Virus record (IMG/VR): IMGVR_UViG_2579778842_000011
Coordinates: 1 to 44,866 of that record
From: a virus
Lineage: Duplodnaviria > Heunggongvirae > Uroviricota > Caudoviricetes
DNA: 44,866 nucleotides
Direction: 5' to 3' (one strand)
Shown here one piece after another: positions 977 to 44,866 of the stretch. Each line of letters opens with the position of its first letter. Position 1 is the first letter of the stretch. A program made the position numbers and the translations under genes. The notes under the pieces were generated by a model. It did no database searches and was not told the origin of the DNA. It saw nothing but the letters and a program-made list of their open reading frames with translations.

Positions 977-999
977 ACGTCATTCACTTGATCCATCAG

Positions 1000-1030: not shown

Positions 1031-1066
1031 CATTTATACCGCTTAATCATTCATAAGGAGCCAATT

Positions 1067-1885: not shown

Positions 1886-1975
1886 TGCCTTTTCCCTGAA
1901 AGCGCAGTTCTGACTCATGTCCGTCCCTGCCCCGCGACTTCTTCCATTCATTTACTTTTTATAAGGAATAATCTC

Positions 1976-2461: not shown

Positions 2462-2475
2462 AAGGGGCCGGAACA

Positions 2476-2952: not shown

Positions 2953-3020
2953 CCCGTCACCGTCACAACCACATCACACCTGTTTTCACTTTTATCTTCT
3001 GTCTTCAGAGGTATCCCATT

Positions 3021-3242: not shown

Positions 3243-3260
3243 GTCAGTAAGGGCATTCTG

Positions 3261-3905: not shown

Positions 3906-3954
3906 CTCGTCATCGTTAAACTATCATTCACCGATTTTCTGTAAGGATTTTATC

Positions 3955-4323: not shown

Positions 4324-4411
4324 CTCTCCAGAATAGCCTTCTGCTACGGCCTGGTGTTTTCACCACGCCACTTTCCCATTTTTATATCTGCATATCAGGA
4401 AAATCTTCAGT

Positions 4412-4789: not shown

Positions 4790-5274
4790 AACTGGCCCTG
4801 ACGCTGGAAGCCGACAGCATTAACGTGCAGGCACTGAACATGGGGCGAATTGTCGCTGACGTCGATGGTGTTAATCTCACTGAACTGATTAACAAGGTCG
4901 CTGAAAACGGTTATTCACTCCGCGTGGTGGAGGAATCCGACCAACAGTCAACCTGCACACTACCACCGTTTGCAACCCTTGCCGGCATACGCTGCAGTAC
5001 CGCACATATCACGGAAAAGGATAACGCCTGGCTGTACTCGCTGTCACACCAGACCAGTGACTTCGGTGAATCAGAATGGATTCATTTCACAGGTAGCGGA
5101 TATCTGTTACGTACCGATGCGTGGTCATATCCGGTTCTGCGGCTCAAGCGCCTGGGGCTGTCAAAAACGTTCCGTCGTCTGGTTGTCACACTCATCCAAC
5201 GTTATGGCGTCAGTCTCATTCATCTGGATGCCAGCGCTGAATGTCTGCCGGACCTGCCCACTTTCGACTGGTAA
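4786..5274 (+). CDS. YeeW-like protein
   Basis: 162 aa ORF whose ATGA start overlaps the toxin stop, as in yeeV-yeeW arrangements. Confidence 0.55.
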   Translation: MKLALTLEADSINVQALNMGRIVADVDGVNLTELINKVAENGYSLRVVEESDQQSTCTLPPFATLAGIRCSTAHITEKDNAWLYSLSHQTSDFGESEWIHFTGSGYLLRTDAWSYPVLRLKRLGLSKTFRRLVVTLIQRYGVSLIHLDASAECLPDLPTFDW

Positions 5275-5285
5275 CCAGGAACAAC

Positions 5286-5483
5286 ATGAAATCATTAACC
5301 ACGGAAACCGCACTGGATATTCTGATTGCGTGGCTACAGGACAATATCGACTGCGAATCGGGAATTATCTTTGACAACGATGAGGATAAAACGGATTCGG
5401 CAGCACTGCTGCCCTGCATTGAACAGGCCAGGGAGGATATCCGTACCCTGCGCCAGTTGCAGTTTCTGCAACAGAACCAGTGA
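5286..5483 (+). CDS. Small hypothetical protein (DUF957-like?)
   Basis: ATG at 5286 preceded by CAGGA; 65 aa; position after yeeW-like gene. Confidence 0.4.
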   Translation: MKSLTTETALDILIAWLQDNIDCESGIIFDNDEDKTDSAALLPCIEQAREDIRTLRQLQFLQQNQ

Positions 5484-5567
5484 GTCTTACTCACCAGACT
5501 TCATTCCACTGACGCCAGCCTGAACAGGGCTGGCGTTTTCATTTATCTGCAAAAAGGAATATCGATT

Positions 5568-6410
5568 ATGTCTGATATCACAGCCTCCCGTCCGGAAGTG
5601 GTCAACGGGCATACGGACGTTATCTGCTCAACCAGTATCCGCCACATTCTGACTGTACGAAAGAGTACGCTGCTGCAAATCGACACACTTATCCGGCAAC
5701 TGGCTGAAATCTCAGCAATGACAGAAAGTATTGGCGGTAAAACCGCACTGGACTGGGCGATGAAACAGGATTTTCGCTGTGGCTGCTGGCTGATGGAAAA
5801 ACCGGAAGCAGCAATGAAAGCCATCACCCGCAATCTCGATCGAGAAATCTGGCGTGACCTGATGCAACGTTCCGGGATGCTGTCATTAATGGATGCGCAG
5901 GCCCGTGATACATGGTACCGGTCACTGGAGTACGATAATTTTCCGGAAATCAGCGAAGCGAACATCCTGAGCACATTTGAACAACTGCACCAGAATAAGG
6001 ATGAGGTGTTTGAGCGAGGGGTGATCAACGTCTTCAGAGGGTTGAGCTGGAATTACAAAACCAACTCCCCCTGTAAATTTGGTAATAAAATTATCGTCAA
6101 CAATCTGGTGAGATGGGACCGGTGGGGATTTCATCTGAACAGCGGGCAACAGGCAGATCGACTTGCCGACCTGGAAAGAATGCTGCACCTGTTCAGCGGC
6201 AAACCAATCCCCGACAACCGGGGAAACATCACCCTTCGTCTGGATGATCACATTCAGTCTGTTCAGGGTAAAGAGAGCTATGAAGATGAGATGTTCAGCA
6301 TCAGATACTTTAAGAAGGGCTCCGCACACATCACGTTCAGGAAACCAGAACTGGTTGACAGACTGAATGATATTATCGCAAAACACTATCCTGACATGCT
6401 GGCAGTATAG
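5568..6410 (+). CDS. Hypothetical protein, last gene of the island before serX
   Basis: 280 aa ORF with AAGGA RBS; no recognisable catalytic motif. Confidence 0.45.
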   Translation: MSDITASRPEVVNGHTDVICSTSIRHILTVRKSTLLQIDTLIRQLAEISAMTESIGGKTALDWAMKQDFRCGCWLMEKPEAAMKAITRNLDREIWRDLMQRSGMLSLMDAQARDTWYRSLEYDNFPEISEANILSTFEQLHQNKDEVFERGVINVFRGLSWNYKTNSPCKFGNKIIVNNLVRWDRWGFHLNSGQQADRLADLERMLHLFSGKPIPDNRGNITLRLDDHIQSVQGKESYEDEMFSIRYFKKGSAHITFRKPELVDRLNDIIAKHYPDMLAV

Positions 6411-6518
6411 CTTTGCCAGTATGCTCAAAGATCGGAAATTGTCCGATAAGATATGATCGCGGGGCATATAAACCGGTTTCAGATGGCATACCCGATGGCA
6501 TACTGTCCGGAAGGATAA

Positions 6519-6554
6519 ATAAAAAAGCGCATGTTAAACAATAACATGCGCTTA
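6519..6554 (-). terminator. Rho-independent terminator downstream of tRNA-Ser
   Basis: On minus strand AAGCGCATGTT..AACATGCGCTT hairpin followed by TTTTTT. Confidence 0.7.
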
Positions 6555-6559
6555 TAATC

Positions 6560-6647
6560 TGGCGGTGAGGGGGGGATTCGAACCCCCGATACGTTGCCGT
6601 ATACACACTTTCCAGGCGTGCTCCTTCAGCCACTCGGACACCTCACC
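6560..6647 (-). tRNA. serX: tRNA-Ser (anticodon GGA)
   Basis: Reverse complement reads GGTGAGGTGTCCGAGTGG...CCTGGAAAG...GGTTCGAATCCCCCCCTCACCGCCA: 88 nt, long variable arm, GGA anticodon loop, CCA end; adjacent to ghrA as at the serX locus. Confidence 0.9.
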
Positions 6648-6841
6648 AAATTGTCGTTCCTGTCTTGCTGGAACGGGCGCTAATTTAGGGAAATCATGAC
6701 CTGAGGTCAACAAACTTTTTTAAAAAATCGCGCGTTTATTCAAACTTCAATCAATATGCAGTTTTAATAAGCGAAATCTGCTTTTTTTGCCACCGACCAC
6801 GGATTTGTTATGCTGGTGGCTTTTGTAGATCATAACGATAA

Positions 6842-7819
<978 letters not shown>

Positions 7820-7858: not shown

Positions 7859-8299
<441 letters not shown>

Positions 8300-8350
8300 C
8301 TAAAATTTTTATTCATCGAATCGTTTGATTGATTAGTGAGCGGTTGAACG

Positions 8351-8405: not shown

Positions 8406-8642
8406 GGTACTGTTCCACGGGTGAAATAAAGGGAGTTTTCGGCACCCCGGTTTTTGATGTGCGTGTGAGATTTCAAAACAGGTGCAGTGCAGCCCACCAG
8501 CGCGGTCGCTACGCGACTATTAACACCCGCTAATCCCTTTCCCCGCCTCGATCTTTCCCTTCGTTATAAAGCGTTTTAGGCGCTCTCCTGAATGCGCAGA
8601 TCAGATAAATAATTTTACGCAAATTTAATGGAGGATAACCGG

Positions 8643-9197
8643 ATGAAAGAAGAATTAACCCTTACAGAAATTTCCCGCTTATACGGCTATACAATTAACG
8701 CCGCTAAGAAATGGCAAGAACGAGGAATGCCATTTAACACCAATACCCGCCGCGTACCAGCCAAAGAGGGGACCGAGTGGGTATTAAAAAATATCATCAA
8801 CCCGCTTAAAGAAACTACTGTCAAAGAACAAATCGACGTAGAAAAATTACGCCGTGAGAGAGCATTAGCGGATGCAGCCGAACGAGAGAACCAGGAAGCA
8901 ATGAATCTCCTGATTCCCGTCGGTTATGTAGAACAGCAACTAGCGGAATATTGCGGGAAAGTGAAGCAGACTATTTTGCAGATCGCCACAATCGACGCTT
9001 TAGAAATTCTCGAATCTGCCACTGACCAGAAAACATTAAAGAATAAGCTAAGGGAGATTATCGAGCGTCGTTTAAATGAAGTAGGGGACTTGTTCGAAAA
9101 TGCAGATTTGGGAGAAGACGAGGAAGAAGAATTACCATTAATGGATGAACCGGAAGAACAAGAACCAGAAGAAGACGATGAATTTGATGTGTCTTAA
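8643..9197 (+). CDS. Nu1-like winged-helix DNA-binding protein (terminase small subunit or recombination directionality factor candidate)
   Basis: ATG 8643 with GGAGG RBS; LTLTEISRLYGYTINAAKKWQERGMPF and EKLRRERALADAA resemble recalled lambda Nu1 N-terminus; acidic C-terminal tail. Confidence 0.45.
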   Translation: MKEELTLTEISRLYGYTINAAKKWQERGMPFNTNTRRVPAKEGTEWVLKNIINPLKETTVKEQIDVEKLRRERALADAAERENQEAMNLLIPVGYVEQQLAEYCGKVKQTILQIATIDALEILESATDQKTLKNKLREIIERRLNEVGDLFENADLGEDEEEELPLMDEPEEQEPEEDDEFDVS

Positions 9198-10922: not shown

Positions 10923-11105
10923 TTACCAGACCTCGGCGGTAATCTTTACTTTAATGTCATACTTCTTTAAGAGTTTGTGAAAGGTTGATTGATCAATACC
11001 TTCACCTTTAAACCATTCACCCATCACTACATCAGGTGTCAGTTCAAAATAACGCTTTGCCATTTCTAAAACGATTTCACGAGTGAACTTAACAGGTCGT
11101 GCCAT
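10923..11105 (-). CDS. Small DNA-binding protein with resolvase/Hin-type HTH-like motif
   Basis: 60 aa; AGGAGG RBS; RPVKFTRE...GIDQSTFHKLLKKYDIK pattern; paralogous to 14641..14865. Confidence 0.45.
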   Translation of the reverse strand: MARPVKFTREIVLEMAKRYFELTPDVVMGEWFKGEGIDQSTFHKLLKKYDIKVKITAEVW

Positions 11106-11158
11106 CTTGAATCCTCCTAAATCTGGATTAATGATTTCTTAAAAAAGAGCGTCAACCG

Positions 11159-11175
11159 CTCACTATTATTTATAT
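11159..11175 (-). promoter_or_regulatory. Recurrent 17-mer (copy 2, ATATAAATAATAGTGAG on minus strand) upstream of the 60-aa gene
   Basis: Followed by AGTGAGCGGTTGACG, which also occurs at 8335-8350 near the prophage junction. Confidence 0.4.
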
Positions 11176-11622
11176 GGGGATTGTATTTTATTTTTCAACC
11201 CCTCACATTTATCTCTTATATATGTATTTATAACAGAGATATGTTAAAATGTTATTCAGATGTTATCAGACGTGTTAAATGTGTTAAACCGCAGCACGAA
11301 TTGCTAAAGCGGAGAGCACGAATTAACCAAATTGATGTATATTCAATCAATTTAGAAAAAGGCATAGCACTTTTTGCTAAAGCGGTGAGCATTAATTGAG
11401 CTATGAATTGTAAAGATTTGTTACAAGATTTTCTCTCAGATCCAAATCTTCACAAACATATAACAATTTAACAGAAGGATAACAAATGAAAGGAAATCGG
11501 TAAATTTTCACTTTCAATACAAATATTATACCACATTTTTCTCGAATTGTCAATTATAGCACCGATCCTACACAGTGTCAACAAAGGATTTTCAAACCTA
11601 CACTAGCCCTACACTATGAAAA

Positions 11623-11808
11623 TTGCCCCTGAATTTTTGCCCCTGAACCAAAATCCCCTAGATTCCACATCCAATTTTTGCCCCTGAAACCCACTATTTT
11701 TGCCCCTGAAATTCTGGGAAACAGTGATTTTGCCCCTCATTTTTGCCCCTGAAATGCCAATAATTGCCCCTGAAAATCTAATTTTTGCCCCTGAAATTTG
11801 CCCCTGAA
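11623..11808 (+). repeat. Iteron-like array: 9 direct copies of TTGCCCCTGAA (8 exact, 1 variant)
   Basis: Copies at 11623, 11637, 11678, 11700, 11730 (variant TTGCCCCTCAT), 11743, 11764, 11785, 11798; all same orientation, irregular 13-41 bp spacing, within a 1.4 kb region lacking ORFs of 60 aa or more. Confidence 0.75.
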
Positions 11809-12436
11809 AAGGATTTGTGAGAAAAACTCTTTATAAAACATTAACTTAGTGAGTGGCAAAACGGGGAATCGGGCGTGCATAGATATTATATAACACATTC
11901 GCTACGCTCATGTGTAAAACCAAAAACAACAAATAACCAAAAAGATATTAGGAGGGCGTAGCCCGACTGCGCGAAGCGCTAACCAATTACTTCTAGTAAC
12001 ACTAATTTAAACTAGATGATACTAGATGGTCTTAGAAGGAATTAACTAGTTTGCTCGCTCGCTTCGCTCACTCTCAAACGTCTGCGACGCCACTGCGTGG
12101 CATCGAGAATCACTTCTGAAAGGATTTTCTTGAAAGGGATTTTAAACTAGTTACTAACTGATTCTAGAAAGATAGTAATAATCACTTTGAAGATAATAGT
12201 AGTTAACTGGTTACTAGATGATTCTAGATCACTTTAATGATCATGAAAGGTATTGGTATCCCTTCGGGATTGCAACCTTCGGTTGCTAAATTGCTTCCTG
12301 ATTATAATTTCTCCAAAAGAAAGATTCTTATATTCTAAAGATACTTCTTCGTTTTGATGATGATTTAATCAAAATCTATGAAGGAGGCGAAGCCGACTGA
12401 ATACCAATTCCTTTCAAATTAGACAAAAATTTCTCG

Positions 12437-12453
12437 TTATAAATAATAGTGAA
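12437..12453 (+). promoter_or_regulatory. Recurrent 17-mer (copy 3, TTATAAATAATAGTGAA) about 35 nt upstream of gene 12489
   Basis: Sequence identity to copies 1 and 2. Confidence 0.4.
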
Positions 12454-12488
12454 CTTACTTTGATTCACTTTTTTAGAGGATTTCCACT

Positions 12489-14640: not shown

Positions 14641-14865
14641 TCAAATTCCTGTTGCTTCTACCATTTCACCGTCAACCTGAACAAAGAATTTCAAATCAAC
14701 TTTATGGAGTGATTTGTAGAATTGAGCGATTGAAATACCGTGTTCACTCAATACTTGCTCTTTTTCGGCTTTACCTTTCGGTGCTTGATAGTACGCTTTT
14801 ACAATCGCTGCCAGTTGTTCACGATCAAAACGGCAAGGACGACCGCGAGTAGCTTTAGTAGTCAT
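14641..14865 (-). CDS. Small DNA-binding protein, paralog of 10923..11105
   Basis: Second ATG (14865) has GGAG at good spacing; TRGRPCRFDREQLAAIVKAYYQ and GISIAQFYKSLHKVDLK align with the 60-aa protein. Confidence 0.45.
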   Translation of the reverse strand: MTTKATRGRPCRFDREQLAAIVKAYYQAPKGKAEKEQVLSEHGISIAQFYKSLHKVDLKFFVQVDGEMVEATGI

Positions 14866-14899
14866 AGTCATTTCTCCAAATTAAAGTGAATGTTCACCT

Positions 14900-15502
14900 T
14901 TATTTAGAGGACTTACATTTTATCGGAAAAAGTTCTCCATCGTCAACCGACATAAAGAACTCTGCCTTAATCCCGTACTTCTTCAACCGTGAATAGTATG
15001 TACCCCGACTTATATCAACCTTGCGAAGCACTTCAAAGAACCCTTTAGGATCGTTGTAATAGTGGCTATAACGCACGTTAGCGAGTTCAACGAATAGTTC
15101 CCTTGTATCACCATAGCCTTTCTTGAAAGCCTCGTTACGATAGCGTGTAATTGCGTGATTCAATCTCTTCTGTTTCAACACTTCCCTGATCGGTGTCCAC
15201 TGCAACCGATAGATCGGACCGTCATCAATGCGATAATAACGCTTGATATCAAAATCAAACCAATCTCGGACTCTCCGAAACTCTGTATGTGATGTTCTAT
15301 GCTTCTTAAAGAAGTTGTGAACGTCTGTATAACCATTATCGCGGTAAAACTCTATTAAAATCTCTTTCGCTTCCTCACGACTAAAGCCAGATGTAGTGTA
15401 GTCGGTTTTTAAATGCTTATGCTTAACTGGCAAACGATATTCATGATCGGTACAAGACAAGGCTAATTCTAATTCATCTCTTTGTTGCTGATTAATTAGC
15501 AT
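14900..15502 (-). CDS. Hypothetical protein with C-terminal HTH-like motif shared with the two small paralogs
   Basis: 200 aa; AAAGGGGG RBS; C-terminal DISRGTYYSRLKKYGIK. Confidence 0.45.
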   Translation of the reverse strand: MLINQQQRDELELALSCTDHEYRLPVKHKHLKTDYTTSGFSREEAKEILIEFYRDNGYTDVHNFFKKHRTSHTEFRRVRDWFDFDIKRYYRIDDGPIYRLQWTPIREVLKQKRLNHAITRYRNEAFKKGYGDTRELFVELANVRYSHYYNDPKGFFEVLRKVDISRGTYYSRLKKYGIKAEFFMSVDDGELFPIKCKSSK

Positions 15503-15587: not shown

Positions 15588-17492
15588 ATGAAACTGATTT
15601 CAAATAAGGCCAAATTAAAAAAGATTCTCAGAAATATCTCTGCTGCAATTCGCCCACCTAAAGCCATGAAGCCTAGCGAATGGGTAGAGGCTAATGTAGT
15701 TGCAACCGATGGTGTTAAAGCCGGATCGCTAATTAAATTGCATCCCTTCCAACGTGGAATGATGGACGCGATCACCGAAGACCGTAGAAAAATTGTGTTT
15801 AAATGTTCGGCACAGTTGGGTAAGACCATGATTCTTAACGGAATTATCTTCCATCGGATCGCGAGTAACCCTACTAATATTGGGGTCTTGCAAAGTAACG
15901 TTAGGGAACTAAATTCTTGGATCGCTGGTAAGGTGAAGCCAGTATTAGAGGCAACGCCAGAATTAAAAGCGATGATCACCGACAAATCAGACCGTAATGC
16001 TGTTAACAACTCATCGATTATTCAGCTTCGTAATGGATCATTCATGTATTTCATGTCGCTGAACAGTCCATCACACTTGCGCGGTAAGACACTCCCTTTG
16101 ATTATTCTTGATGAAGTTGATGCGGCTGATGAATCAGACGAAGGGAACCCGATCCAGCTAGCGGAACAACGCGCAACCACTTTCGGGGAAGATGCAAGGA
16201 TCGTAATTGCTTCCACTCCAACCGCTCGTGATGGGGCGATTAACCAACAATGGGAACTCTCGGATAAGAGAAAATATCATGTCGTTTGCCAGCATTGCGG
16301 ACACAAGCACGTAATGGAATGGAGTAACGTACATTTCGATTGGCATACGATTAACGGTAAATCATTACCCAACCCAGATACAGCCGTTTACCGTTGCCCT
16401 GAATGTGAAACCGATTGGACCGAAGGGGATCGCCTCCGTGCTGTTGCTCAGGGAGAATGGGTCGCCACCGAACCAAATGCGGAAGTAATCGGTTTTCATG
16501 CTAACCGCCTTATGTCTCCGTTTAGTTCTATCCGTGCGTGTGTGGTGGACTTTGCTGATAGCTACGCGAATATGTCCCTGGCAACGTTCTACAATACAGT
16601 CCTCGGTGAAACCTTCGATGATCTTAACGAAGATCGCACAGCCGACGAACTGGAAACGCTGAAAACTGATATTAGCCTAGACAATATTCCTGATGATGTA
16701 CTGGCTCTGGTAGGTGGAGTTGACCAGCAAAAAGACCGTCTGGAATCTACCTTGCTGGGTATTTCTCGTAAAGGGCTATGCGTAGTTGATCACCGATCAT
16801 TCTATGATGTGAACTGCGAACGCCACGAATCACCAGCATATAACCAGCTTTACAACTTCCTGAAAGCTAAATTCTATACCCGATCCGGTGAACGAATCCC
16901 GATGTTATCTGCTTTCGTGGACTCATCGAACGGACGAGCTACAAACGTGATCTATCGATTCTGTAGTCGGTGGCAAAATCTAACCGCCATTAAAGGCGCA
17001 AGCAATGTTGATGCACCAATCCTTCCGGTAAAAGACACAAGAACGGGTGGTTTTACCCTTAAAATTCTGGGCGTAAACAACCTTAAAACGATGATCCGTG
17101 AAATGATTAACCGGAACTTGAGAGATGGCGATCCTCACACTGTCTTCCAGATTGGTGACGTTCCTGATGACTATTGCGAGCAATTGCTTTCTGAACAGTT
17201 GAAACGGCAGGGTAATACCACACGTTGGGTAAAAGTTGGACAAACACGAAACGAAGCGTTGGACTGCCTGGCTTATTCCTATGCTGCTTCTCGTCATGTA
17301 CTCAATAAAATGTCATGGGAAAAACTCGAAGCCATCAAAGATAGTTTGAACCGTGAACCAGAAGAATCCGTAGAAGCTCCTAAATCGCAATCTAACGAGC
17401 AAATCGAAGAAACTAAGCCAATCACACGACCACAACGTAAAAACATCGCCAGACGCCCAAATAGAGGCCGTAGCTGGGTAACATCGTTCTAA
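15588..17492 (+). CDS. Terminase large subunit (lambda GpA family)
   Basis: 634 aa; Walker-type segments; C-terminal WVKVGQTRNEALDCLAYSYAA resembles recalled lambda gpA RNEALDCFVYALAA. Confidence 0.85.
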   Translation: MKLISNKAKLKKILRNISAAIRPPKAMKPSEWVEANVVATDGVKAGSLIKLHPFQRGMMDAITEDRRKIVFKCSAQLGKTMILNGIIFHRIASNPTNIGVLQSNVRELNSWIAGKVKPVLEATPELKAMITDKSDRNAVNNSSIIQLRNGSFMYFMSLNSPSHLRGKTLPLIILDEVDAADESDEGNPIQLAEQRATTFGEDARIVIASTPTARDGAINQQWELSDKRKYHVVCQHCGHKHVMEWSNVHFDWHTINGKSLPNPDTAVYRCPECETDWTEGDRLRAVAQGEWVATEPNAEVIGFHANRLMSPFSSIRACVVDFADSYANMSLATFYNTVLGETFDDLNEDRTADELETLKTDISLDNIPDDVLALVGGVDQQKDRLESTLLGISRKGLCVVDHRSFYDVNCERHESPAYNQLYNFLKAKFYTRSGERIPMLSAFVDSSNGRATNVIYRFCSRWQNLTAIKGASNVDAPILPVKDTRTGGFTLKILGVNNLKTMIREMINRNLRDGDPHTVFQIGDVPDDYCEQLLSEQLKRQGNTTRWVKVGQTRNEALDCLAYSYAASRHVLNKMSWEKLEAIKDSLNREPEESVEAPKSQSNEQIEETKPITRPQRKNIARRPNRGRSWVTSF

Positions 17493-38093: not shown

Positions 38094-38441
38094 ATGGCTA
38101 AAAATATTTTCACTGAATTTCCTACTTATCCGGTCGATCAGCTTTCCGGTATTTTTATTAATGGCATTAGCCCAGAATCAATGACTTATGATTTTGCGGC
38201 GAAGAGAGTTAAACATAAACAATATAAAGAATGTATCCGCGATCATGAAAAAGGGACCGTGTTTTGTGTCGCTACATTGGCTAAACGTCCTAAATATCGT
38301 TTTCGTGTAGGACAAGAAGTTGATGTGGTTAATCCTTATAGCTTTAACTGTCTGGGCGATGCACGCGCGGTGTGTGTAGGCACTGCTCCTTATTATATCA
38401 AGGGTATGCGCTTTATTGGTTATATCTTCGAAATGATCTAA
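38094..38441 (+). CDS. Hypothetical protein
   Basis: 115 aa ORF in the operon preceding the endolysin. Confidence 0.45.
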   Translation: MAKNIFTEFPTYPVDQLSGIFINGISPESMTYDFAAKRVKHKQYKECIRDHEKGTVFCVATLAKRPKYRFRVGQEVDVVNPYSFNCLGDARAVCVGTAPYYIKGMRFIGYIFEMI

Positions 38442-38450
38442 GGGGGTAAT

Positions 38451-38804
38451 ATGTTAAGCAAACATTTTTCTCGCAAGGAATTTAAATGTAAATGCGGAAA
38501 ATGTGATTATGATACAATCGACGCTGAATTACTGGTAATTCTTGAGGATGTACGAGAGCACTTCGGGAAACCAGTAATTATTAACAGTGGGAACCGTTGC
38601 CCGACTCATAACAAGAATGTAGGCGGTGCAACCAACAGCTATCACGTTCGAGGCCGTGCTGCTGACATTGTGATCAAGGGTGTCTCCCCTGATATTGTCC
38701 ATGCTTATCTTGATGGGAAATATCCTACTCAATACGGCTTAGGCAAATATAAAACCTTTACGCATATCGATTCCAGATCGAAAAAATCACGATGGAATGG
38801 ATAA
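38451..38804 (+). CDS. Endolysin, peptidase M15 family (zinc peptidoglycan peptidase)
   Basis: 117 aa; NSYHVRGRAADI and FTHID motifs (His/Asp zinc ligands). Confidence 0.75.
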   Translation: MLSKHFSRKEFKCKCGKCDYDTIDAELLVILEDVREHFGKPVIINSGNRCPTHNKNVGGATNSYHVRGRAADIVIKGVSPDIVHAYLDGKYPTQYGLGKYKTFTHIDSRSKKSRWNG

Positions 38805-38810
38805 AATTAA

Positions 38811-38835
38811 AGCGCCTCTAGTGGGCGCTTTTTTG
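38811..38835. terminator. Bidirectional rho-independent terminator between endolysin and the helicase gene
   Basis: AGCGCC..GGCGCT hairpin followed by TTTTTT on plus strand and T-rich run on minus. Confidence 0.7.
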
Positions 38836-40326
38836 TTATATAGCAATGGTTTTAGTTGCATAGCTGAACTTGTCGGTTAGATAATAGCGGATTCTCTCAA
38901 GTGCATGTTTTACCGCATAATTTTTATGCTTGACTTTTCCGTTACGACCGAATATACACAGATGATCTATAAGATCCCAGACCGTTGCAATATCCTTAGA
39001 ACCATGTTTACGCAATGCACGACCGATACTCTGACGAACGATAGTTGATTCCTTCACTGGATGACCGAAAATAACATGGTGCAAATTCTTAATTGAAACA
39101 CCAGTAGAGAACACACCATAGGATGCAACACAAATGATCCCTGTTTCCCCTTCCGCTAATTTCTTAAATTCATCACGTTCTTCTGTCTTAACTCCACCGT
39201 CAATATAATAAACCTTGTCGTGTACCTTCTGTAACGCATCATACATAAGTTTTCCGTGCTTAGTATTGCGGAACATCAGGAATACGTTTTCGCCCTTCTT
39301 AGCGAGTTTTAGCGCCAAATTACAAGCAAACTTATTTCGTCGTGGGTTAGACGTAATATACTTGATCTCTTCCGCATATTCCCGCCCCTTAACCGCGCTA
39401 CATTCCTCATCGGTATAACGAAGGAAAAGGCAGTTAATTTTCAGTTTTGTCACTTGACCTTCTTCCATCAGGCGGTCAATACTCACGATCTTAGAAATAT
39501 CACCGAAAAGCCCGACGTACTGCATTAAATGGCACTTTGATTCTTTCGGGGAACCAGTCATACCGATTTTGAACTGGCAATGATTCATTCCGTTAATGAT
39601 ATTGGTAATATTTTTGGCACTAGCCTTATGTGATTCATCAACTATCAACATTCCATATTGTTTGAACCATTCAGGAGGCATCTTGCAAGCTGATTGCCAG
39701 GTACTAACCGTGATTAACCTGTCTCCCGGATGTTTCCCGCTACCACTCATCATTGTATGAATTGCTTCATAAGGGAATAGCCTATAATCGACAAAATCAT
39801 CCCTCATTTGAACCACCAGCGATGTAGTAGGGACAATGATTAGAACTTTTCCGGTGTAGTTCTCTAAGTACCAACGAGACAGCATACAAGCAATCAATGA
39901 CTTACCCGCACTGGTAGGAAGAACCAGCATTCTACGGCGATTATGAATACCCTGAAAGACTGCCTCCCTTTGATACCAGTAAGGATTGATTTTATTGGAA
40001 CCGGAATACACTTCTAGGGAATCAATCCATTCATTAATCGCGTCTTTGGTTACATCTTCCTTCTCAAGCAATCTGGGGTCAATCCAGACTGAATAGCCCA
40101 TATTTTTAACGAAGACACCCAACGTTTTTAATAGTCCAATTGGTAGGGTGTTTTCATGCGTAAACAGTCTTATTCGTCCATCCCAGCCAGAATACTTGTA
40201 ACGGGGGCTAAACCTAGCCCCTTCAACCTCAAACGAGAAATAATCTCTTAATTCCATTCCGATAGAAGGAGAGCAATCAACCTTAACGAAACTGTAATCT
40301 TGAAAATGAATTTTAATATCTTGCAT
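38836..40326 (-). CDS. SF2 DExH helicase, T4 UvsW-like
   Basis: ATG at 40326 overlapping upstream stop (TAATG); N-terminus MQDIKIHFQDYSFVKVDC and whole length resemble recalled T4 UvsW; motifs LPTSAGKSL, DESH, QSIGRALRKHG. Confidence 0.8.
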   Translation of the reverse strand: MQDIKIHFQDYSFVKVDCSPSIGMELRDYFSFEVEGARFSPRYKYSGWDGRIRLFTHENTLPIGLLKTLGVFVKNMGYSVWIDPRLLEKEDVTKDAINEWIDSLEVYSGSNKINPYWYQREAVFQGIHNRRRMLVLPTSAGKSLIACMLSRWYLENYTGKVLIIVPTTSLVVQMRDDFVDYRLFPYEAIHTMMSGSGKHPGDRLITVSTWQSACKMPPEWFKQYGMLIVDESHKASAKNITNIINGMNHCQFKIGMTGSPKESKCHLMQYVGLFGDISKIVSIDRLMEEGQVTKLKINCLFLRYTDEECSAVKGREYAEEIKYITSNPRRNKFACNLALKLAKKGENVFLMFRNTKHGKLMYDALQKVHDKVYYIDGGVKTEERDEFKKLAEGETGIICVASYGVFSTGVSIKNLHHVIFGHPVKESTIVRQSIGRALRKHGSKDIATVWDLIDHLCIFGRNGKVKHKNYAVKHALERIRYYLTDKFSYATKTIAI

Positions 40327-40895
40327 TAGTTCCACTCCACACTTGCAATATTCTTTATATTGTTTAGTGATTTATTGCAGTAGTGGAATGTTTCAGTTTT
40401 GCCGTATTCAATCCCGCCTATACCCACATCCAGTAATCTCTTTATTGCTCTTTCAGTGGCTAAAGCATGTTTCATTGATGGCATTTCACCAGCAAAGACA
40501 ATATCAAAGTTATGACCGGGATTGCGTACACCCAGATTAATGCGTCGCTTGATGATTGACTTTGTTACACCAAATTTACCAATATCCCCTGATTTCATTA
40601 CATAGAGATAAGGCACACCCGCTTTATATTGAAAGTAATCACTTTTGAGACATGCACAGCGTTTACCTTCATTAAGCAGGTTGGTAGCTGATTTGTCGGC
40701 TCTATTGCCGCATCGGGTACATGTAAGAGCAATTCTTGAATGAAGCCCTTTAAACTCACCCAGAAAGCCATGAAAGACTAATGGTAAGTCCTTATCTTTG
40801 ATGTGAGTCAGAATGCGTTGTTCTAATGCCGATGGAGTTACAGCACGGGAGGATTTAGGAGTAAAAACAATATCTTTAGCCATTACTGGAATCAT
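40326..40895 (-). CDS. Zinc-ribbon + T5orf172/GIY-YIG-like domain protein
   Basis: 189 aa; GAGG RBS; CTRCGN...CAC Cys cluster; YLYVMKSGDIGKFGVTK...R...E pattern. Confidence 0.5.
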   Translation of the reverse strand: MIPVMAKDIVFTPKSSRAVTPSALEQRILTHIKDKDLPLVFHGFLGEFKGLHSRIALTCTRCGNRADKSATNLLNEGKRCACLKSDYFQYKAGVPYLYVMKSGDIGKFGVTKSIIKRRINLGVRNPGHNFDIVFAGEMPSMKHALATERAIKRLLDVGIGGIEYGKTETFHYCNKSLNNIKNIASVEWN

Positions 40896-41017
40896 ATAGA
40901 CCTCACTTTTTTAACTTATAGGCATAACCTCAATATGGTTGGTTTGGGATTTAGGGTCGCGTATTATACACATTCAGATAGAGAATGCAATAGTAAGACA
41001 ATTTTCTCTAATAAATA

Positions 41018-41036
41018 GTAGTGAGCTTATTATTTT
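41018..41036 (+). promoter_or_regulatory. Variant copy of the recurrent 17-mer (TAATAAATAGTAGTGAGC) upstream of gene 41050
   Basis: Similarity to the copies at 9204, 11159 and 12437. Confidence 0.3.
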
Positions 41037-41049
41037 AGAGGAAACTACT

Positions 41050-42225
41050 ATGAAACTTGCTTACGCTGCCGAAATTCCTTTTGTTAAGAAAACTCGCGGT
41101 TTATCACCGGAAGAGTACCAACAACGAATCATCGCTAAACTGGAACCTGCTTTCGTATTTGGTGGATTTATCCTACCGTGGAAGGGTAATCACACTTACT
41201 TTCGAATCTACAATTTAGACACACAAGAATATAAGGACTACAAATTACGCAAACTGGAAGATACTAACGGGGGTGAGTTATTCCAGACTGAAAAGGCTGT
41301 ATGGTTGAAAATGGAATCTCGTTGTAATGAGAAGGGAAAGAAATTCCTCGGATGGCAAGGAGAATGGAAAGGGCGAAATAGAACGAAAGCCCGTGTTTTG
41401 TGCCCTGAACACAATCAAATCATGACGCCATCTCTATTACATGCTCTCAAAGATGATTTCGATTTTGATTGCAAAATCTGTATGGCTGAAAAATCCCAAC
41501 GGGTAAGAAGTGGCAAGACTTTTGATGAAGTTATTAAGGACAAAGAGACAATCATCAATGCACGTTGCGAGAGTACGCCTTACACCTTCAAAGGATTCAT
41601 CATAAACACCCCACACCTAAAGGATGTTAAATTTAAAACCTATTGCAAGACACATAACCACGAATGGGAATCTCATTTAAGATGTGCTGATTCTTTCACT
41701 TGTCCGCTTTGCATTAAAGACCAACTGGTGCAACTGTCTAACCGGACTTATCAGGGTAAGGCTAGTTTCTACATTCAATTATTAGATGACAAATTTATTA
41801 AATTTGGAATCACTACCCGGAAACCAGAAGAACGAATGAGAGAGCAAACCAGAAAGAGCAACTTCACTCACCGCTTAATCTTTACTCATGAGTTTGAGGA
41901 TGGTTGGAAAGCCGTTGATTTAGAGCATGAAGTAAAACAACGCTTCAAGACTCATGCAGCACCCTACAAAGATTTCAAGGATGGATGGTCGGAAACTCTG
42001 ACTATTGATGAGTTACCACACTTACAGCAACTGGTTTATGACTACCTAACCAATCAACCGGACGAGGCTAATATGTGGGTATCCCCGAAAGATGTATTTG
42101 ATGACGATACATTCAAGCTACATACTCACTTCTACGGCATCAATAAACCGGAATTTTTCTGTATTGATGACGACAGTCCTGATTTAATGGATGAATACTT
42201 TAATACGCTCTTAGACGCTGCCTAA
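41050..42225 (+). CDS. Paralogous protein with two Cys/His zinc-ribbon modules and C-terminal T5orf172/GIY-YIG-like domain
   Basis: ATG 41050 after AGAGGA (track ORF begins upstream without RBS); CPEHN...CKIC and CKTHNHEW...CPLC; FYIQLLDDKFIKFGITTRK. Confidence 0.45.
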   Translation: MKLAYAAEIPFVKKTRGLSPEEYQQRIIAKLEPAFVFGGFILPWKGNHTYFRIYNLDTQEYKDYKLRKLEDTNGGELFQTEKAVWLKMESRCNEKGKKFLGWQGEWKGRNRTKARVLCPEHNQIMTPSLLHALKDDFDFDCKICMAEKSQRVRSGKTFDEVIKDKETIINARCESTPYTFKGFIINTPHLKDVKFKTYCKTHNHEWESHLRCADSFTCPLCIKDQLVQLSNRTYQGKASFYIQLLDDKFIKFGITTRKPEERMREQTRKSNFTHRLIFTHEFEDGWKAVDLEHEVKQRFKTHAAPYKDFKDGWSETLTIDELPHLQQLVYDYLTNQPDEANMWVSPKDVFDDDTFKLHTHFYGINKPEFFCIDDDSPDLMDEYFNTLLDAA

Positions 42226-42242
42226 CGCAATTAAATTAAAAA

Positions 42243-42271
42243 GGGGTACATCTGTACCCCTTAACTGTTTT
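42243..42271. terminator. Hairpin terminator between convergent genes
   Basis: GGGGTACA-TC-TGTACCCC inverted repeat flanked by A-run and T-rich tail. Confidence 0.5.
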
Positions 42272-42298
42272 AGCTCGTTATACGTCGATTTAGGCCGC

Positions 42299-43978
42299 TT
42301 AAATTCCAAATTCCTGTAATGGACCTGGTATTTCCTCTTCTGGTTTCCAGTTCTTATCTGTCAGCATGTCTAAACATGGATGCAGAACAAGCCCGTTACT
42401 CTCCAGAATCTGCCTATCATTGATAGTTTTCAAATCGACAAAGATTTGTCCTTTCCTCGTTCCTCTTGAATTTTCTATTACAACTCTCTGGGTCTTTCCA
42501 TCGATGTATTCCAGTACAAACAAGTTTTTGTTTCTGTCAATCCTGCTACACCCGATCCGCTTTAGAGCTTGCTTAATCTTAAACCGGACCTTTAGTCGTT
42601 CCTCGTTGTAAACATCTTCTAAATCAAATTCTGCGAGCTTCTCCCAGCCTTGAGAGTCAACAGAATACATTTCCTCTTCTGCCATCTTGATCTGATTGTA
42701 GAGTGTTTCACGCTCGCTATTGAGGGTAGTAATCTGATCGGCTAGCTCCTTCGTTGCTCCTGTCATAGCAGAAAGGGCAATCAGGTTATCAATCTTGCGT
42801 GATATCTCATCAACCTGTACTTTTAAAGCCGGAACCGGATTAGCCTTGTCCTCAGCAATCCAGATTTTATCAGCCAGCAATTGCAATACAGCTTTCTCTA
42901 ATTGATCACCTCGAAAACTCCAGTTTGGATGCTCGCAATCAAGTCTACGTGAACGGGTCGCATCACATGTATAACGATACTGGTCAGAACGTTTGTTCGT
43001 TCCCTTCACTTTAACCATAGCGCAACCGCAATGATCACATTTCAATAGGCCAATACCACTAAGCAGGGGGATCGGTTTAACTTCTTCCTTGTCTCCAAAG
43101 TTCCATGCTCTAGCACCAATATTTTTCTTAAGGTGATAGAACGTAGGGTCATCAATAACACGAGGGTAATAATCCTTTAACTCATAGTTAACGCCATCTA
43201 CAGAGACCTCCTTGATACCAATCAAAGCGCGGGTATGAAACAACCTTTCAACCATTGCCCGTGACCATTTTGAATGCTTCTTGTTGCTAACCGCTGGTGG
43301 CGGTGTATAAGTCTCGTTAAGGTGATCCAGTATCTCGGCGGTTGAACGTCCATTCTTCCGTAATTCCACAATCTCCTGAACAACAGGGAAGTACACCGGA
43401 TGAGGCAGCACATAACCGGAAGTGGTATCAGTCCACCACATATTCTTTCCAACTTCCTCGATTGCCACTGCCGGATTCTGGGGATTTTCTTGATGCGACT
43501 TAATCTTAATCAGTGCGCTTGAGTTAGTACGATTGCGCTTAGTCTGACTTTCCTCATTACCACGGATGAATAGAAGGATGGAGAACATCAGGTCCATCGG
43601 ATTAGCGGTAACAGTATCCAGCGAGTAGATCTTGTTATCCATGCCAGTAACAATGGTTATTCCCCTACGGATGATTGAAAGGAATAACTCCTGCGCACTG
43701 ACAATATCGGCACGGGATAAGCGGTCCAAGTTTTCAATGAATAGCCAGCTACCAACAGGAACGGATCTACCAATTGCATCAAGGAAACGAGATAGCGCCC
43801 CTGTTTTAGAGTTAGCACCTTTAAACGCAGATACACCCAGATCCTGATAATCATTTACCAGTTCAAGGTCATACTTTGCCGCAATCTCTCTCGCCATCCT
43901 GATTTGTCGTTCATAACTCGAACCATCACTCTGACGCATAGACGAGAAGCGAATATACGAATACAGTTTAGTTTTCAT
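42299..43978 (-). CDS. Large serine recombinase (phage integrase of the serine family)
   Basis: ATG at 43978 (track start 43993 is TTG); N-terminal YSYIRFSSMRQSDGSSYERQ resolvase catalytic motif, ENLDRLSR, Cys-rich zinc ribbon CDHCGC...CDATRSRRLDCEH, coiled coil. Confidence 0.85.
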   Translation of the reverse strand: MKTKLYSYIRFSSMRQSDGSSYERQIRMAREIAAKYDLELVNDYQDLGVSAFKGANSKTGALSRFLDAIGRSVPVGSWLFIENLDRLSRADIVSAQELFLSIIRRGITIVTGMDNKIYSLDTVTANPMDLMFSILLFIRGNEESQTKRNRTNSSALIKIKSHQENPQNPAVAIEEVGKNMWWTDTTSGYVLPHPVYFPVVQEIVELRKNGRSTAEILDHLNETYTPPPAVSNKKHSKWSRAMVERLFHTRALIGIKEVSVDGVNYELKDYYPRVIDDPTFYHLKKNIGARAWNFGDKEEVKPIPLLSGIGLLKCDHCGCAMVKVKGTNKRSDQYRYTCDATRSRRLDCEHPNWSFRGDQLEKAVLQLLADKIWIAEDKANPVPALKVQVDEISRKIDNLIALSAMTGATKELADQITTLNSERETLYNQIKMAEEEMYSVDSQGWEKLAEFDLEDVYNEERLKVRFKIKQALKRIGCSRIDRNKNLFVLEYIDGKTQRVVIENSRGTRKGQIFVDLKTINDRQILESNGLVLHPCLDMLTDKNWKPEEEIPGPLQEFGI

Positions 43979-44043
43979 ACCATTTCCAAACAAAAACGCC
44001 CCTACCGTGTATTATAACGATAGGGGCATTGGTTAGTAAGTCA

Positions 44044-44289
44044 TTAATATTTCTTTCCAGTTAGTTTTGCATCACGTTTATTAATATCCTCGATATGACT
44101 CCATACACACGCAGTAATAAAGTCGTCATCGTCACCAACTCCGGCAACCTGTGCTAATTCAGTACACAGTTGATTTAAAGAAGGTGCAACGGCAGCACGT
44201 TTGACACTATCACCCTGTACATATTGTTCGGCATTTGCAGCACCAACCAAACCCAGAGCAAGAACAACACCAGCGATAATCTTTTTCAT
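44044..44289 (-). CDS. Small secreted protein (moron candidate)
   Basis: 81 aa; AGAGGA RBS; signal-peptide-like MKKIIAGVVLALGLVGAANA followed by A-E; two Cys. Confidence 0.5.
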   Translation of the reverse strand: MKKIIAGVVLALGLVGAANAEQYVQGDSVKRAAVAPSLNQLCTELAQVAGVGDDDDFITACVWSHIEDINKRDAKLTGKKY

Positions 44290-44334
44290 AGTAGAATTTC
44301 CTCTTGTTATTTGAATTACGATATATTTATATCA

Positions 44335-44460
44335 TTAAAAATTGATGCTAATTACCAGACCAAACACAACCGCACCAATCAAATCAATCCAGTTAATACA
44401 CAATCCGCTATATTCTTTCTTGAATGTCTTAGATGAAATGCCATCATGAAATTGTTTCAT
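44335..44460 (-). CDS. Small hydrophobic peptide (41 aa), absent from the ORF track
   Basis: MKQFHDGISSKTFKKEYSGLCINWIDLIGAVVFGLVISINF; GGGGTGAG 5 nt upstream of ATG; C-terminal hydrophobic helix. Confidence 0.3.
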   Translation of the reverse strand: MKQFHDGISSKTFKKEYSGLCINWIDLIGAVVFGLVISINF

Positions 44461-44596
44461 TGCTCACCCCATACTAACGACAATATAAGAAAGACTAATC
44501 ATGGTTGTGAGACTACCTCCCACGAATGAGATAAAAGCTAACATGTTTGATTCTCCATTTAAAAAGCGGTGGGAATTGCACCCACCAAATTAGAAA

Positions 44597-44866
44597 TTAC
44601 TTCTTGCTAATAAACTCTTTGTAGATAAAATCTAAGACTTCCTTTAACTTCTTATCGGTGCCAATCATCGCCGGAAGTTCTTCTTTAATATCGCGAGGAA
44701 GATACACATTACCTTTCCAGAACAAGCAACCACATTGAGCAATCGAATAGCTGAACATCCATTCACAATCTTGTTCTATCTCCCAGAATCTAACCTGCTC
44801 ATCTTCGAGTTGAAGTTCGATTCCACGGCGGCGAGCATAGTTATGGATTGCTTTGGTAATGTTCAT
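44597..44866 (-). CDS. Hypothetical protein; start coincides with the window edge, so may be 5' truncated
   Basis: 89 aa ORF, AT-rich phage-like composition. Confidence 0.4.
   Translation of the reverse strand: MNITKAIHNYARRRGIELQLEDEQVRFWEIEQDCEWMFSYSIAQCGCLFWKGNVYLPRDIKEELPAMIGTDKKLKEVLDFIYKEFISKK

What the first reader, a model, noticed from the sequence alone, without database searches (positions are those of the whole stretch)
42299..43978. Prophage uses a large serine recombinase rather than a tyrosine integrase
The only recombinase in the prophage portion of the window has the resolvase-type catalytic N-terminus, recombinase domain, zinc ribbon and coiled coil of large serine integrases. 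Such integrases are well established in actinophages and Firmicutes phages but uncommon among enterobacterial lambda-like prophages. It lies about 35 kb from the left junction, so either attR is just beyond the window or the gene is not adjacent to attP. It is followed by small moron-like genes.
Basis: partly seen in the sequence, partly recalled or inferred. Interest (0 to 1): 0.6.

Follow-up and report, generated by a model that had tools for sequence, protein, structure and literature searches.

The report
Serine integrase of an E. coli prophage
The gene is a genuine large serine integrase that most likely inserted this 36.6-kb E. coli prophage into the ycdX gene; it is an uncharacterised member of a well-known enzyme family, so it is solid but ordinary.

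Summary
Confirmed. Window 42299-43978 (minus strand) encodes an intact 559-aa large serine recombinase (LSR). It has a Resolvase catalytic domain, a Recombinase domain, a four-cysteine zinc ribbon with an inserted coiled coil, and a C-terminal beta-rich extension. Sequence profile and predicted fold both match the solved LSRs SprA, PhiC31 Int and A118/LI Int.

The window is E. coli. The prophage splits ycdX. attL lies at 8273-8277. In near-identical prophages attR lies about 43 nt beyond the window end, about 0.93 kb from the int start. No tyrosine integrase is annotated in the prophage or beyond the right junction.

Sister prophages carry same-size LSRs but sit in hicB (92% identical) or codB (75%). 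Substitutions concentrate in the two DNA-binding domains. The three 5-bp att cores (AATCC, GGCAA, GGTAA) share only AA. The reconstructed attP is dyad-symmetric about that AA.

The prophage is not demonstrably lambda-like and has no close cultured relative. Related LSRs occur in about 1% of complete E. coli genomes and in Salmonella at the same ycdX position. E. coli LSRs have already been catalogued and tested by others. Activity, the excision factor and the excised form remain unobserved.

Verdict: new member of a known kind, modest interest.

The parts
42299..43978 (-). Large serine recombinase (integrase) gene, 559 aa
   Evidence: ORF. Pfam Resolvase, Recombinase and Zn_ribbon_recom. PHROG 95 integrase at 6.5e-63. 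Profile and fold matches to SprA, PhiC31 Int and A118/LI Int.
43520..43963 (-). Catalytic resolvase-type domain (aa 6-153). Predicted nucleophile S12, with R10, D85, R86 and R89.
   Evidence: PF00239 at E 2.6e-15 on aa 1-170. Conserved residues. Alignment to 3guv.
43118..43387 (-). Recombinase domain (RD, aa 198-287), the first DNA-binding domain
   Evidence: PF07508 at 1e-8. Region aa 166-300 is 86% identical to the hicB-targeting sister enzyme, against 98% in the N-terminal domain.
42875..43051 (-). Zinc-ribbon domain (aa 310-368) with C314, C317, C338 and C348
   Evidence: PF13408 at 1e-10. The four cysteines are invariant. Region aa 301-375 is 83% identical to the hicB-targeting sister enzyme.
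42671..42835 (-). Coiled-coil motif inserted in the zinc-ribbon domain (aa 382-436)
   Evidence: AlphaFold2 helices 382-406 and 410-436. Profile hits to coiled-coil chains over roughly aa 360-480. Region aa 376-455 is 96-100% conserved between the ycdX and hicB lineages.
42302..42601 (-). C-terminal beta-rich extension (aa 460-559), role unknown
   Evidence: AlphaFold2 secondary structure. No family match.
8243..8300 (+). attL. The B arm is ycdX sequence, the 5-bp core AATCC is at 8273-8277, the predicted crossover AA is at 8273-8274, and the P' arm ends in ACCCCCAATAAC at 8289-8300.
   Evidence: Comparison of the window with the empty K-12 ycdX site and with attR of L001.
7874..8277 (+). 5' fragment of host gene ycdX, cut by the insertion. 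The fused ORF ends at 8299 and encodes 141 aa, against 245 aa for the intact protein (738-nt CDS).
   Evidence: PGAP marks the same fragment as a pseudogene in relatives.
44044..44289 (-). 81-aa ORF with a signal-peptide-like N-terminus, in the variable cargo region between int and attR
   Evidence: ORF. No Pfam or PHROG match. Replaced by 137-139-aa ORFs in some sister prophages.
44597..44866 (-). 89-aa ORF of unknown function (PHROG 6147), the last gene before attR. Its start codon is the last triplet of the window.
   Evidence: A 128-aa ORF takes its place in other sister prophages.
43995..44030 (-). Terminator-like hairpin (14-bp stem plus T-tail) ending 17 nt upstream of the int ATG
   Evidence: Function inferred only.
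42241..42262 (.). Bidirectional terminator-like hairpin between the int stop and the convergent GIY-YIG nuclease gene

Best explanation
The gene encodes the prophage's integrase, a large serine recombinase (LSR).

Inferred mechanism, from the established LSR model. Dimers bind a phage site attP of about 54-60 bp and a shorter site attB inside the host gene ycdX. The two synapse through the coiled coils. Ser12 makes 2-bp staggered double-strand cuts at the central AA dinucleotide. Subunit rotation and religation then produce attL and attR. The insertion splits ycdX.

Excision would need a phage-encoded recombination directionality factor. That factor has not been identified.

Target choice resides in the Recombinase and zinc-ribbon domains.

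What is shown: domain architecture, conserved catalytic residues, the exact junction sequences, proximity of int to attP, and co-variation of the DNA-binding domains with the integration site.

What is inferred: catalytic activity, the cleavage position, directionality, and the current inducibility of the prophage.
For: 1. Family membership. Three Pfam domains are present. A profile of 28 homologues hits SprA/YokA at 6.5e-20, A118/LI Int at 9e-12, PhiC31 Int at 2e-10, and the TP901-1 N-terminal domain. The 16 best Foldseek matches of the AlphaFold2 model are all LSR structures, followed by catalytic domains of smaller serine recombinases; every match at E<=0.001 is a serine recombinase.

2. 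Only recombinase. PGAP annotation of prophages 98-99% identical in DNA lists no other integrase, only IS transposases. The ORFs of the early region scanned here have no integrase match.

3. Position. The int start lies about 0.93 kb from the attR core and faces it.

4. Junctions. attB, attL and attR share only AATCC, and the joins are precise. The reconstructed attP has arms GTTATTGTGGGT and ACCCCCAATAAC placed exactly symmetrically about AA. It shows 17 of 30 symmetric positions, P=0.003 against shuffles. The hicB-lineage attP shows 19 of 30, P=0.0002.

5. Natural retargeting. The hicB-inserting sister LSR is 92% identical overall: N-terminal domain 98%, coiled coil 96-100%, Recombinase domain 85-86%, zinc ribbon 83%. 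The codB-inserting LSR is about 75% identical. The cores GGCAA and GGTAA overlap AATCC only at AA. On the left side all six att sites read GGN before the AA. On the right side five of six read NCC after it.

6. Site specificity. Ten of ten independent assemblies carrying the same small-terminase allele have it next to ghrA-ycdX'. Twenty-five complete genomes carry the int-ycdX' junction. A Salmonella relative with a 71% identical LSR is inserted at the homologous ycdX position, with the same AGGG-AA-TCC junction.
Against: No recombination assay exists. No intact attP, which would mark the excised form, was found in IMG/VR or JGI metagenomes, nor in the contigs inspected. No directionality factor was identified. 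Some sister copies are truncated or carry IS insertions, so parts of the lineage are decaying. A terminator-like hairpin directly upstream of int leaves its expression unexplained. The codB-lineage attP is not significantly symmetric in the AA register (13 of 30, P=0.13).
Confidence: 0.86

Rival explanations
1. The LSR is an accessory recombinase, like the YbcK-type LSR genes carried mid-genome by lambdoid phages. Its role would be inversion, resolution or some other function. Integration would be done by another, unrecognised enzyme among the many hypothetical proteins.
For: The closest matches in deposited phage genomes include YbcK-like proteins of lambdoid phages, about 31% identical. Perceval, one of these phages, has its own xis gene (primer table). 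About half of the prophage ORFs have no annotation.
Against: No other recombinase family is detected. The gene lies 0.93 kb from attP, not mid-genome. The att sites have LSR-type anatomy. The LSR's DNA-binding domains change exactly when the integration site changes, while the catalytic domain and coiled coil stay 96-100% identical.
Confidence: 0.04
2. The gene is an intact-looking relic in a grounded, no longer inducible prophage. It once served as the integrase but is no longer expressed or no longer able to excise the element.
For: No attP-bearing contig was found in viral or metagenome collections. There is no cultured close relative; the best large-terminase identity is 43%. IS elements or truncated recombinases occur in several sister copies. 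No recognisable repressor, replication module or excision factor was found. A terminator-like hairpin abuts the int start.
Against: The ORF is full length with every conserved catalytic and zinc-binding residue. It is 99% identical to the representative of a cluster of 975 database sequences. A complete structural and lysis gene set is present. The same site is occupied in diverse strain backgrounds and in Salmonella, and there are three target sites within one lineage. These point to repeated recent integrations.
Confidence: 0.1

Closest known systems
SPbeta SprA (YokA) large serine integrase of Bacillus subtilis (PDB 9dxd, 9dxf, 9dxh)
   Same: Best sequence-profile hit (6.5e-20, aa 86-474) and best fold hit (1e-17). 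It has the same domain order. It is known to integrate within a host gene (spsM) and to need a small directionality factor (SprB); this is from my own knowledge.
   Different: Only 13-14% identical in the structural alignment. The host phylum and att sequences differ. The 100-aa C-terminal extension here has no assigned counterpart. No directionality factor has been identified here.
Listeria A118 / LI integrase (PDB 4kis)
   Same: The Recombinase, zinc-ribbon and coiled-coil region matches at 9e-12 by profile and 4e-10 by fold. It inserts inside a gene (comK; own knowledge). Its attP has arms placed symmetrically around a central dinucleotide (own knowledge).
   Different: About 15% identity. 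Different targets. The enzyme here is proteobacterial.
PhiC31 and Bxb1 integrases
   Same: Same family (PhiC31 2e-10 by profile and 4e-16 by fold; a 500-aa integrase, 9iu2, at 1e-5). The same mechanism is expected: a 2-bp central dinucleotide and unidirectional recombination.
   Different: They are actinophage enzymes with about 15% identity. The central dinucleotide differs. Both are experimentally characterised, and this enzyme is not.
YbcK-type LSRs of E. coli lambdoid phages and prophages (phages 4A7, Perceval, D2)
   Same: Among the closest phage-record matches: 31% identity over 81% of the length. Also enterobacterial.
   Different: In those genomes the gene lies mid-genome, at 39-41 kb of 49 kb. 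Perceval has its own xis gene. Here the LSR is at the prophage end next to attP and is the sole recombinase.
Serine recombinases of Burkholderia phages JC1, Bcep22 and Bcep176
   Same: 28-30% identity over 85-94% of the length. In JC1 and Bcep22 the gene is at the end of the deposited genome and is annotated as serine recombinase or integrase.
   Different: Different host genus, phage type and target.
E. coli LSRs Ec03 and Ec04 in the Durrant et al. 2022 catalogue (PMC10083194)
   Same: They are LSRs from E. coli mobile elements with computationally predicted att sites. Ec03 was used in human cells. This shows that the kind is already known in E. coli.
   Different: Different sequences: Ec03 starts MRSVITYLRYSS and Ec04 starts MKLLVTYIRWST. 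Neither this protein's N-terminus nor its attP was found in the supplementary text held, which may be incomplete.

Membership tests
Large serine recombinase / serine integrase | N-terminal resolvase-type catalytic domain with a nucleophilic serine and conserved Arg and Asp residues | tested here: met
   PF00239 at E 2.6e-15 on aa 1-170. R10, S12, D85, R86 and R89 are conserved. S12 aligns to the RVST serine of 3guv.
Large serine recombinase / serine integrase | Recombinase domain (RD) following the long alpha-E helix | tested here: met
   PF07508 at 1e-8 over aa 198-287. Helix 127-164 in the model.
Large serine recombinase / serine integrase | Zinc-ribbon domain with four cysteines and an inserted coiled coil | tested here: met
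   PF13408 at 1e-10. C314, C317, C338 and C348 are invariant. Helices 382-406 and 410-436. Full-length fold matches to SprA and PhiC31 Int.
Large serine recombinase / serine integrase | Short, dissimilar attP and attB sites that share only a few bp around a non-palindromic central dinucleotide, with a dyad-symmetric attP | tested here: met
   5-bp shared core AATCC. The cores of three lineages intersect at AA. attP symmetry is 17 of 30, P=0.003. The exact cleavage position is inferred, not measured.
Large serine recombinase / serine integrase | Gene located next to attP at one end of the integrated element | tested here: met
   The int start is about 0.93 kb from the attR core in prophages 98-99% identical in DNA. 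attR itself lies about 43 nt outside the window.
Large serine recombinase / serine integrase | Catalyses attP x attB recombination without host factors; excision requires a directionality factor | not testable with these tools
No directionality-factor candidate was validated. No excised attP form was found.
Lambda-like (lambdoid) prophage | Sequence relatedness to lambdoid phages, with a CI/Cro-type immunity region and an O/P-type replication module | tested here: not met
   For the 38000-44866 query, nucleotide matches to deposited phages cover only uvsW, and those are T4-like phages. The large terminase is at most 43% identical to any phage record. No repressor or replication family was recognised. 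The gpA-type large terminase, Nu1-like small terminase and J-like tail tip show only distant resemblance in the structural module.
Small serine recombinases (resolvases / invertases such as Pin, Hin, Tn3) | About 180-200 aa, with the catalytic domain followed directly by a C-terminal helix-turn-helix domain | tested here: not met
   The protein is 559 aa and has Recombinase and zinc-ribbon domains. PHROG 125 (invertase) scores only 4.9e-11, against 6.5e-63 for the integrase PHROG.

The most novel reading that the evidence does not exclude
One prophage lineage of E. coli and Salmonella carries a set of closely related natural LSRs that have been retargeted to three different intragenic sites: ycdX, hicB and codB. 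The ycdX and hicB pair differ by only 43 of 559 residues. Thirty-two of these fall in the Recombinase and zinc-ribbon regions, and there are matching changes in the inner and right-hand part of attP. If both enzymes are active and mutually orthogonal, they form a compact natural map of LSR specificity determinants. Reversible insertion into the hicB antitoxin gene or into ycdX could also act as a host regulatory switch.
Probability: 0.5. Interest if true: 0.45.

Novelty: new member of a known kind. Interest (0 to 1): 0.3.

Why it matters
It adds a concrete, testable enterobacterial serine integrase. The attB is defined inside ycdX, and the attP is reconstructed as TCGTGTTATTGTGGGTACATGATATTAGGG-AA-TCCAAGATTAGTAAACCCCCAATAACTAAA. 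Two natural specificity variants (hicB and codB) are available for comparison.

Such enzymes are useful as orthogonal integration tools. The ycdX and hicB pair narrows the candidate specificity residues.

For genome annotation, it shows that this widespread 'recombinase family protein' marks the end of a prophage type with no cultured relative, and that this prophage inactivates ycdX.

It does not change what is known about how serine integrases work.

Tried and rejected
1. Full-length Pfam scan. It gave no Resolvase hit even at E<=10. I first read this as a divergent catalytic domain. I rejected that after aa 1-170 alone scored 2.6e-15.

2. The 189-aa ORF next to attL (8628-9197) as an Xis-like directionality factor. 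It matches the small-terminase family PHROG 57 at 2e-15, so the idea is dropped as unsupported.

3. Searches for an intact attP, which would mark the excised phage. Exact-pattern scans of IMG/VR for the ycdX-type and hicB-type attP found nothing. A degenerate pattern in JGI metagenomes found one hit, which proved to be an attR variant in ycdX. Phage-sized contigs carrying close homologues proved to be integrated in hicB, or next to ydcR, the gene that follows hicB. Ten places carrying the same small-terminase allele were all attL at ycdX.

With the single protein it returned only a 512-bp contaminant contig.

5. Literature. No paper in the library combines ycdX, integration site and prophage. 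No paper describing prophage insertion at ycdX, hicB or codB turned up. The LF82 paper mentions hicB only as a phage-plasmid toxin-antitoxin gene.

6. The codB-lineage attP in the AA register is not significantly symmetric. I did not pursue alternative registers.

Full report
**Observation**

The finding's coordinates correspond to a minus-strand ORF, 42299..43978, of 559 aa starting at an ATG.
- An upstream in-frame TTG at 43993 lies inside the T-tail of a hairpin.
- PGAP uses the ATG in relatives 98-99% identical in DNA.

Pfam on the full-length protein finds two domains:

| Domain | Residues | E-value |
|---|---|---|
| Recombinase PF07508 | 198-287 | 1e-8 |
| Zn_ribbon_recom PF13408 | 310-368 | 1e-10 |

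The Resolvase model did not appear even at E<=10 on the full-length protein.
- Residues 1-170 alone score PF00239 at 2.6e-15, 57 bits against a cut-off of 23.3, covering aa 6-153.
- The miss therefore looks like a search artefact, not divergence.

PHROG 95 ('integrase') covers aa 2-484 at 6.5e-63. The invertase PHROG scores only 4.9e-11.

**Family evidence**

A search of the large protein collection returned 763 homologues at E<=1e-5. An alignment of 28 of them, at 29-89% identity, has these conserved columns:
- Invariant: Y8, R10, Q16, R24, Q25, G48, S50, E82, D85, R86, R89, E143, S144, K147, R150.
- Invariant cysteines: C314, C317, C338, C348.
- Conserved in at least 90%: S12.
- S12 aligns with the serine of the RVST motif of a solved resolvase-family domain, PDB 3guv.

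The alignment profile hits solved LSRs:

| Target | E-value |
|---|---|
| SPbeta SprA/YokA | 6.5e-20 |
| A118/LI integrase | 9e-12 |
| PhiC31 integrase | 2e-10 |
| TP901-1 N-terminal domain | 8e-6 |
| a 500-aa integrase (9iu2) | 1e-5 |

An AlphaFold2 model has mean pLDDT 80. It shows the alpha/beta catalytic domain, a long helix at 127-164, the Recombinase domain, a zinc ribbon, an antiparallel helix pair at 382-436, and a beta-rich C-terminal extension at 460-559.

Its best Foldseek matches in the PDB are, in order, SprA, PhiC31 integrase and the LI integrase-DNA complex, followed by catalytic domains of smaller serine recombinases. All 24 matches at E<=0.001 are serine recombinases. Membership of the large serine recombinase (LSR) family is therefore met on every sequence and fold criterion.

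**Genomic context**

The window is Escherichia coli.

| Window coordinates | Content |
|---|---|
| 1 to about 6700 | End of an island with an Ag43-type autotransporter beta-domain, DUF932 and DUF4942 genes |
| 6842-7819 | ghrA |
| 7874-8277 | First 404 nt of ycdX |
| 8278 to the window end | About 42% G+C prophage |

Comparison with the empty K-12 site gives the junctions:
- attB: ...CATCCCGGAAATCCCAAATATG...
- attL: ...CATCCCGGAAATCCAAGATTAG...
- attR, in prophages 98-99% identical in DNA: ...GATATTAGGGAATCCCAAATATG...

Other points about the junctions and their surroundings:
- The three sites share only AATCC, which lies at window 8273-8277 in attL.
- The attR core lies about 43 nt beyond the window end, about 931 bp from the int start codon. 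The prophage is therefore about 36.6 kb.
- Beyond attR come ycdX', ycdY, ycdZ and csgG. There is no integrase there.
- PGAP annotations of three complete relatives list no other recombinase in the prophage apart from IS transposases.
- The ORFs of the early region scanned here show no integrase family.

**Comparative evidence that this enzyme sets the integration site**

Fifty-eight of 5426 complete E. coli genomes carry the region.

| Integration site | Complete genomes |
|---|---|
| int-ycdX' junction | 25 |
| one hicB junction type | 22; further hicB-type junctions carry a different adjacent gene |
| codB | 2 |

All three sites are intragenic.

Identity of the sister LSRs to the window protein, by region:

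| Region | hicB-type | codB-type |
|---|---|---|
| Whole protein | 92% (516/559) | about 75% |
| N-terminal domain and alpha-E helix | 98% (81% in strain L3Cip3) | 79% |
| Recombinase region (aa 166-300) | 85-86% | 60-61% |
| Zinc ribbon (aa 301-375) | 83% | 68% |
| Coiled coil (aa 376-455) | 96-100% | 80-85% |

The att cores are AATCC for ycdX, GGCAA for hicB and GGTAA for codB.
- When the attP sequences of the ycdX and hicB lineages are aligned, the two cores overlap only at AA.
- The two attPs are identical for 27 nt of the left arm. They differ at the position just left of the AA, in the inner half of the right arm and at two positions of its outer motif.

The reconstructed attP sites are dyad-symmetric about that AA:
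- ycdX attP: arms GTTATTGTGGGT and ACCCCCAATAAC lie exactly symmetric about it, with 17 of 30 symmetric positions, P=0.003 against shuffles.
- hicB attP: 19 of 30, P=0.0002.
- On the left side, all six att sites read GGN before the AA. On the right side, five of six read NCC after it.

These features fit the LSR paradigm. They make a 2-bp crossover at a non-palindromic AA the most likely cleavage position. That position is inferred, not measured.

**Site specificity across backgrounds**

- Ten of ten independent assemblies that encode the same small-terminase allele have it next to ghrA-ycdX', with different genes to the left of ghrA.
- A Salmonella relative has a 71% identical LSR whose cluster holds 437 database sequences. 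The prophage there is of the same type, with UvsW, UvsY and an M15 endolysin. It is inserted next to ycdY-ycdZ-csgG at the homologous ycdX position, with the junction AGGG-AA-TCC.
- More distant relatives (38% identical) in Enterobacter and Citrobacter lie next to non-phage cargo: an AAA-type ATPase and a UvrD-type helicase.

**What is not shown**

- No recombination assay exists for this protein.
- I found no intact attP in IMG/VR or JGI metagenomes, nor in the contigs inspected.
- No recombination directionality factor was identified. The ORF next to attL that I suspected is a small terminase.
- Some sister copies are truncated or carry IS insertions.
- A 14-bp-stem terminator-like hairpin ends 17 nt before the int ATG, so how int is expressed is open.

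**Comparison with what is known**

The enzyme works like SprA, A118/LI Int, PhiC31 Int and Bxb1 Int, and it meets the family's defining sequence and site features. Identity to the solved LSRs is only about 13-15% in the structural alignments.

The best matches in deposited phage genomes are:
- YbcK-type LSRs of lambdoid phages, 31% identical. They lie mid-genome, and Perceval, one of these phages, has its own xis gene.
- Serine recombinases of Burkholderia phages JC1, Bcep22 and Bcep176, 28-30% identical.

E. coli LSRs such as Ec03 and Ec04 were already catalogued with predicted att sites, and Ec03 was used in human cells (PMC10083194). They are different sequences. This protein's N-terminus and attP were not found in the supplementary text held.

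I found no paper in the searchable library that describes prophage insertion at ycdX, hicB or codB.

The 'lambda-like' label is not supported:
- For the 38000-44866 query, only the uvsW part matches any deposited phage at the nucleotide level, at 80-85% identity to RB49-like T4-type phages.
- The large terminase is at best 43% identical to any deposited phage.

**Verdict**

- This is a new, uncharacterised member of a known kind, not a new kind.
- The most useful by-product is the natural ycdX/hicB/codB specificity series.
- Interest is 0.3.

Noticed in passing
window 38836-42225: A UvsW-type helicase gene (minus strand) sits with two CapR/GIY-YIG nuclease genes (40326-40895 minus, 41047-42225 plus). 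Together they form an accessory block between the endolysin gene and int. The block is absent from sister prophages in DEC5A, ETEC4085 and PRO_A. It is present in L3Cip3 and, together with UvsY, in a Salmonella relative. The uvsW part is 80-85% identical in nucleotides to RB49-like T4-type lytic phages. This suggests homing-endonuclease-associated gene flow between lytic and temperate phages.
   Followed up: partly
window 11622-11809, within the ORF-poor AT-rich stretch 11106-12488: Seven copies of ATTTTTGCCCCTGAAA, with start-to-start spacings of 41, 22, 43, 21, 21 and 13 bp. They look like iterons or an operator array, possibly the replication origin or immunity region of a prophage that has no recognisable replication or repressor genes.
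   Followed up: no
window 8628-9197 and 15588-17492: A Nu1-like small terminase gene (PHROG 57, 2e-15) sits about 350 bp from attL. In the circular genome it would lie directly next to attP. It is separated by 6.4 kb of early-region genes from the gpA-type large terminase, which is an unusual split of the packaging genes.
   Followed up: no
window 43995-44030 (minus strand) and 42241-42262: A strong terminator-like hairpin (14-bp stem plus T-run) ends 17 nt upstream of the int start codon, leaving no room for a promoter in between. A bidirectional hairpin follows the int stop codon. Expression of int may depend on read-through or antitermination.
   Followed up: no
window 10923-11105 (-), 14641-14871 (-), 14900-15502 (-, C-terminal 55 aa): Three ORFs share a paralogous domain of about 50 aa, 33-43% identical, with no Pfam or PHROG family. 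They are possibly small DNA-binding regulators and are among the untested candidates for an excision factor or repressor.
   Followed up: partly
window 42299-43978 (protein-level search behaviour): hmmscan of the full-length protein, and of a 99% identical homologue, does not report Pfam Resolvase even at E<=10. The isolated N-terminal 170 aa score 2.6e-15, and a 71% identical homologue scores 1e-15 at full length. The full-length miss is therefore a false negative of the search.
   Followed up: yes
L004/L007 (E. coli O55:H7 DEC5A), L005, L008, L010: Sister prophages insert inside hicB, the antitoxin gene of the hicAB toxin-antitoxin pair. They leave the first 309 nt of the 417-nt gene, with hicA intact upstream. 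The consequences for toxin control were not examined.
   Followed up: no
L015 (JANCAF010000145.1, assembly labelled Actinacidiphila cocklensis): A 512-bp contig in an actinomycete genome assembly is 99% identical to aa 168-337 of this E. coli recombinase. It is almost certainly contaminating E. coli DNA.
   Followed up: no
window 1-6700: An island ending in an Ag43-type autotransporter C-terminus, DUF932 and DUF4942 genes. Annotated relatives list a toxin-antitoxin antitoxin gene there too. It lies upstream of ghrA, where K-12 has only the serX tRNA gene and intergenic DNA. It is unrelated to the prophage, and its own integrase would lie outside the window.
   Followed up: no
L017/L018 (Enterobacter assemblies): A 638-aa LSR, 38% identical to this one and very common in Enterobacter and Citrobacter, lies beside an AAA-ATPase plus UvrD-helicase pair, an LprI-family gene and a second resolvase. 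This looks like a defence-type island rather than a phage.
   Followed up: no
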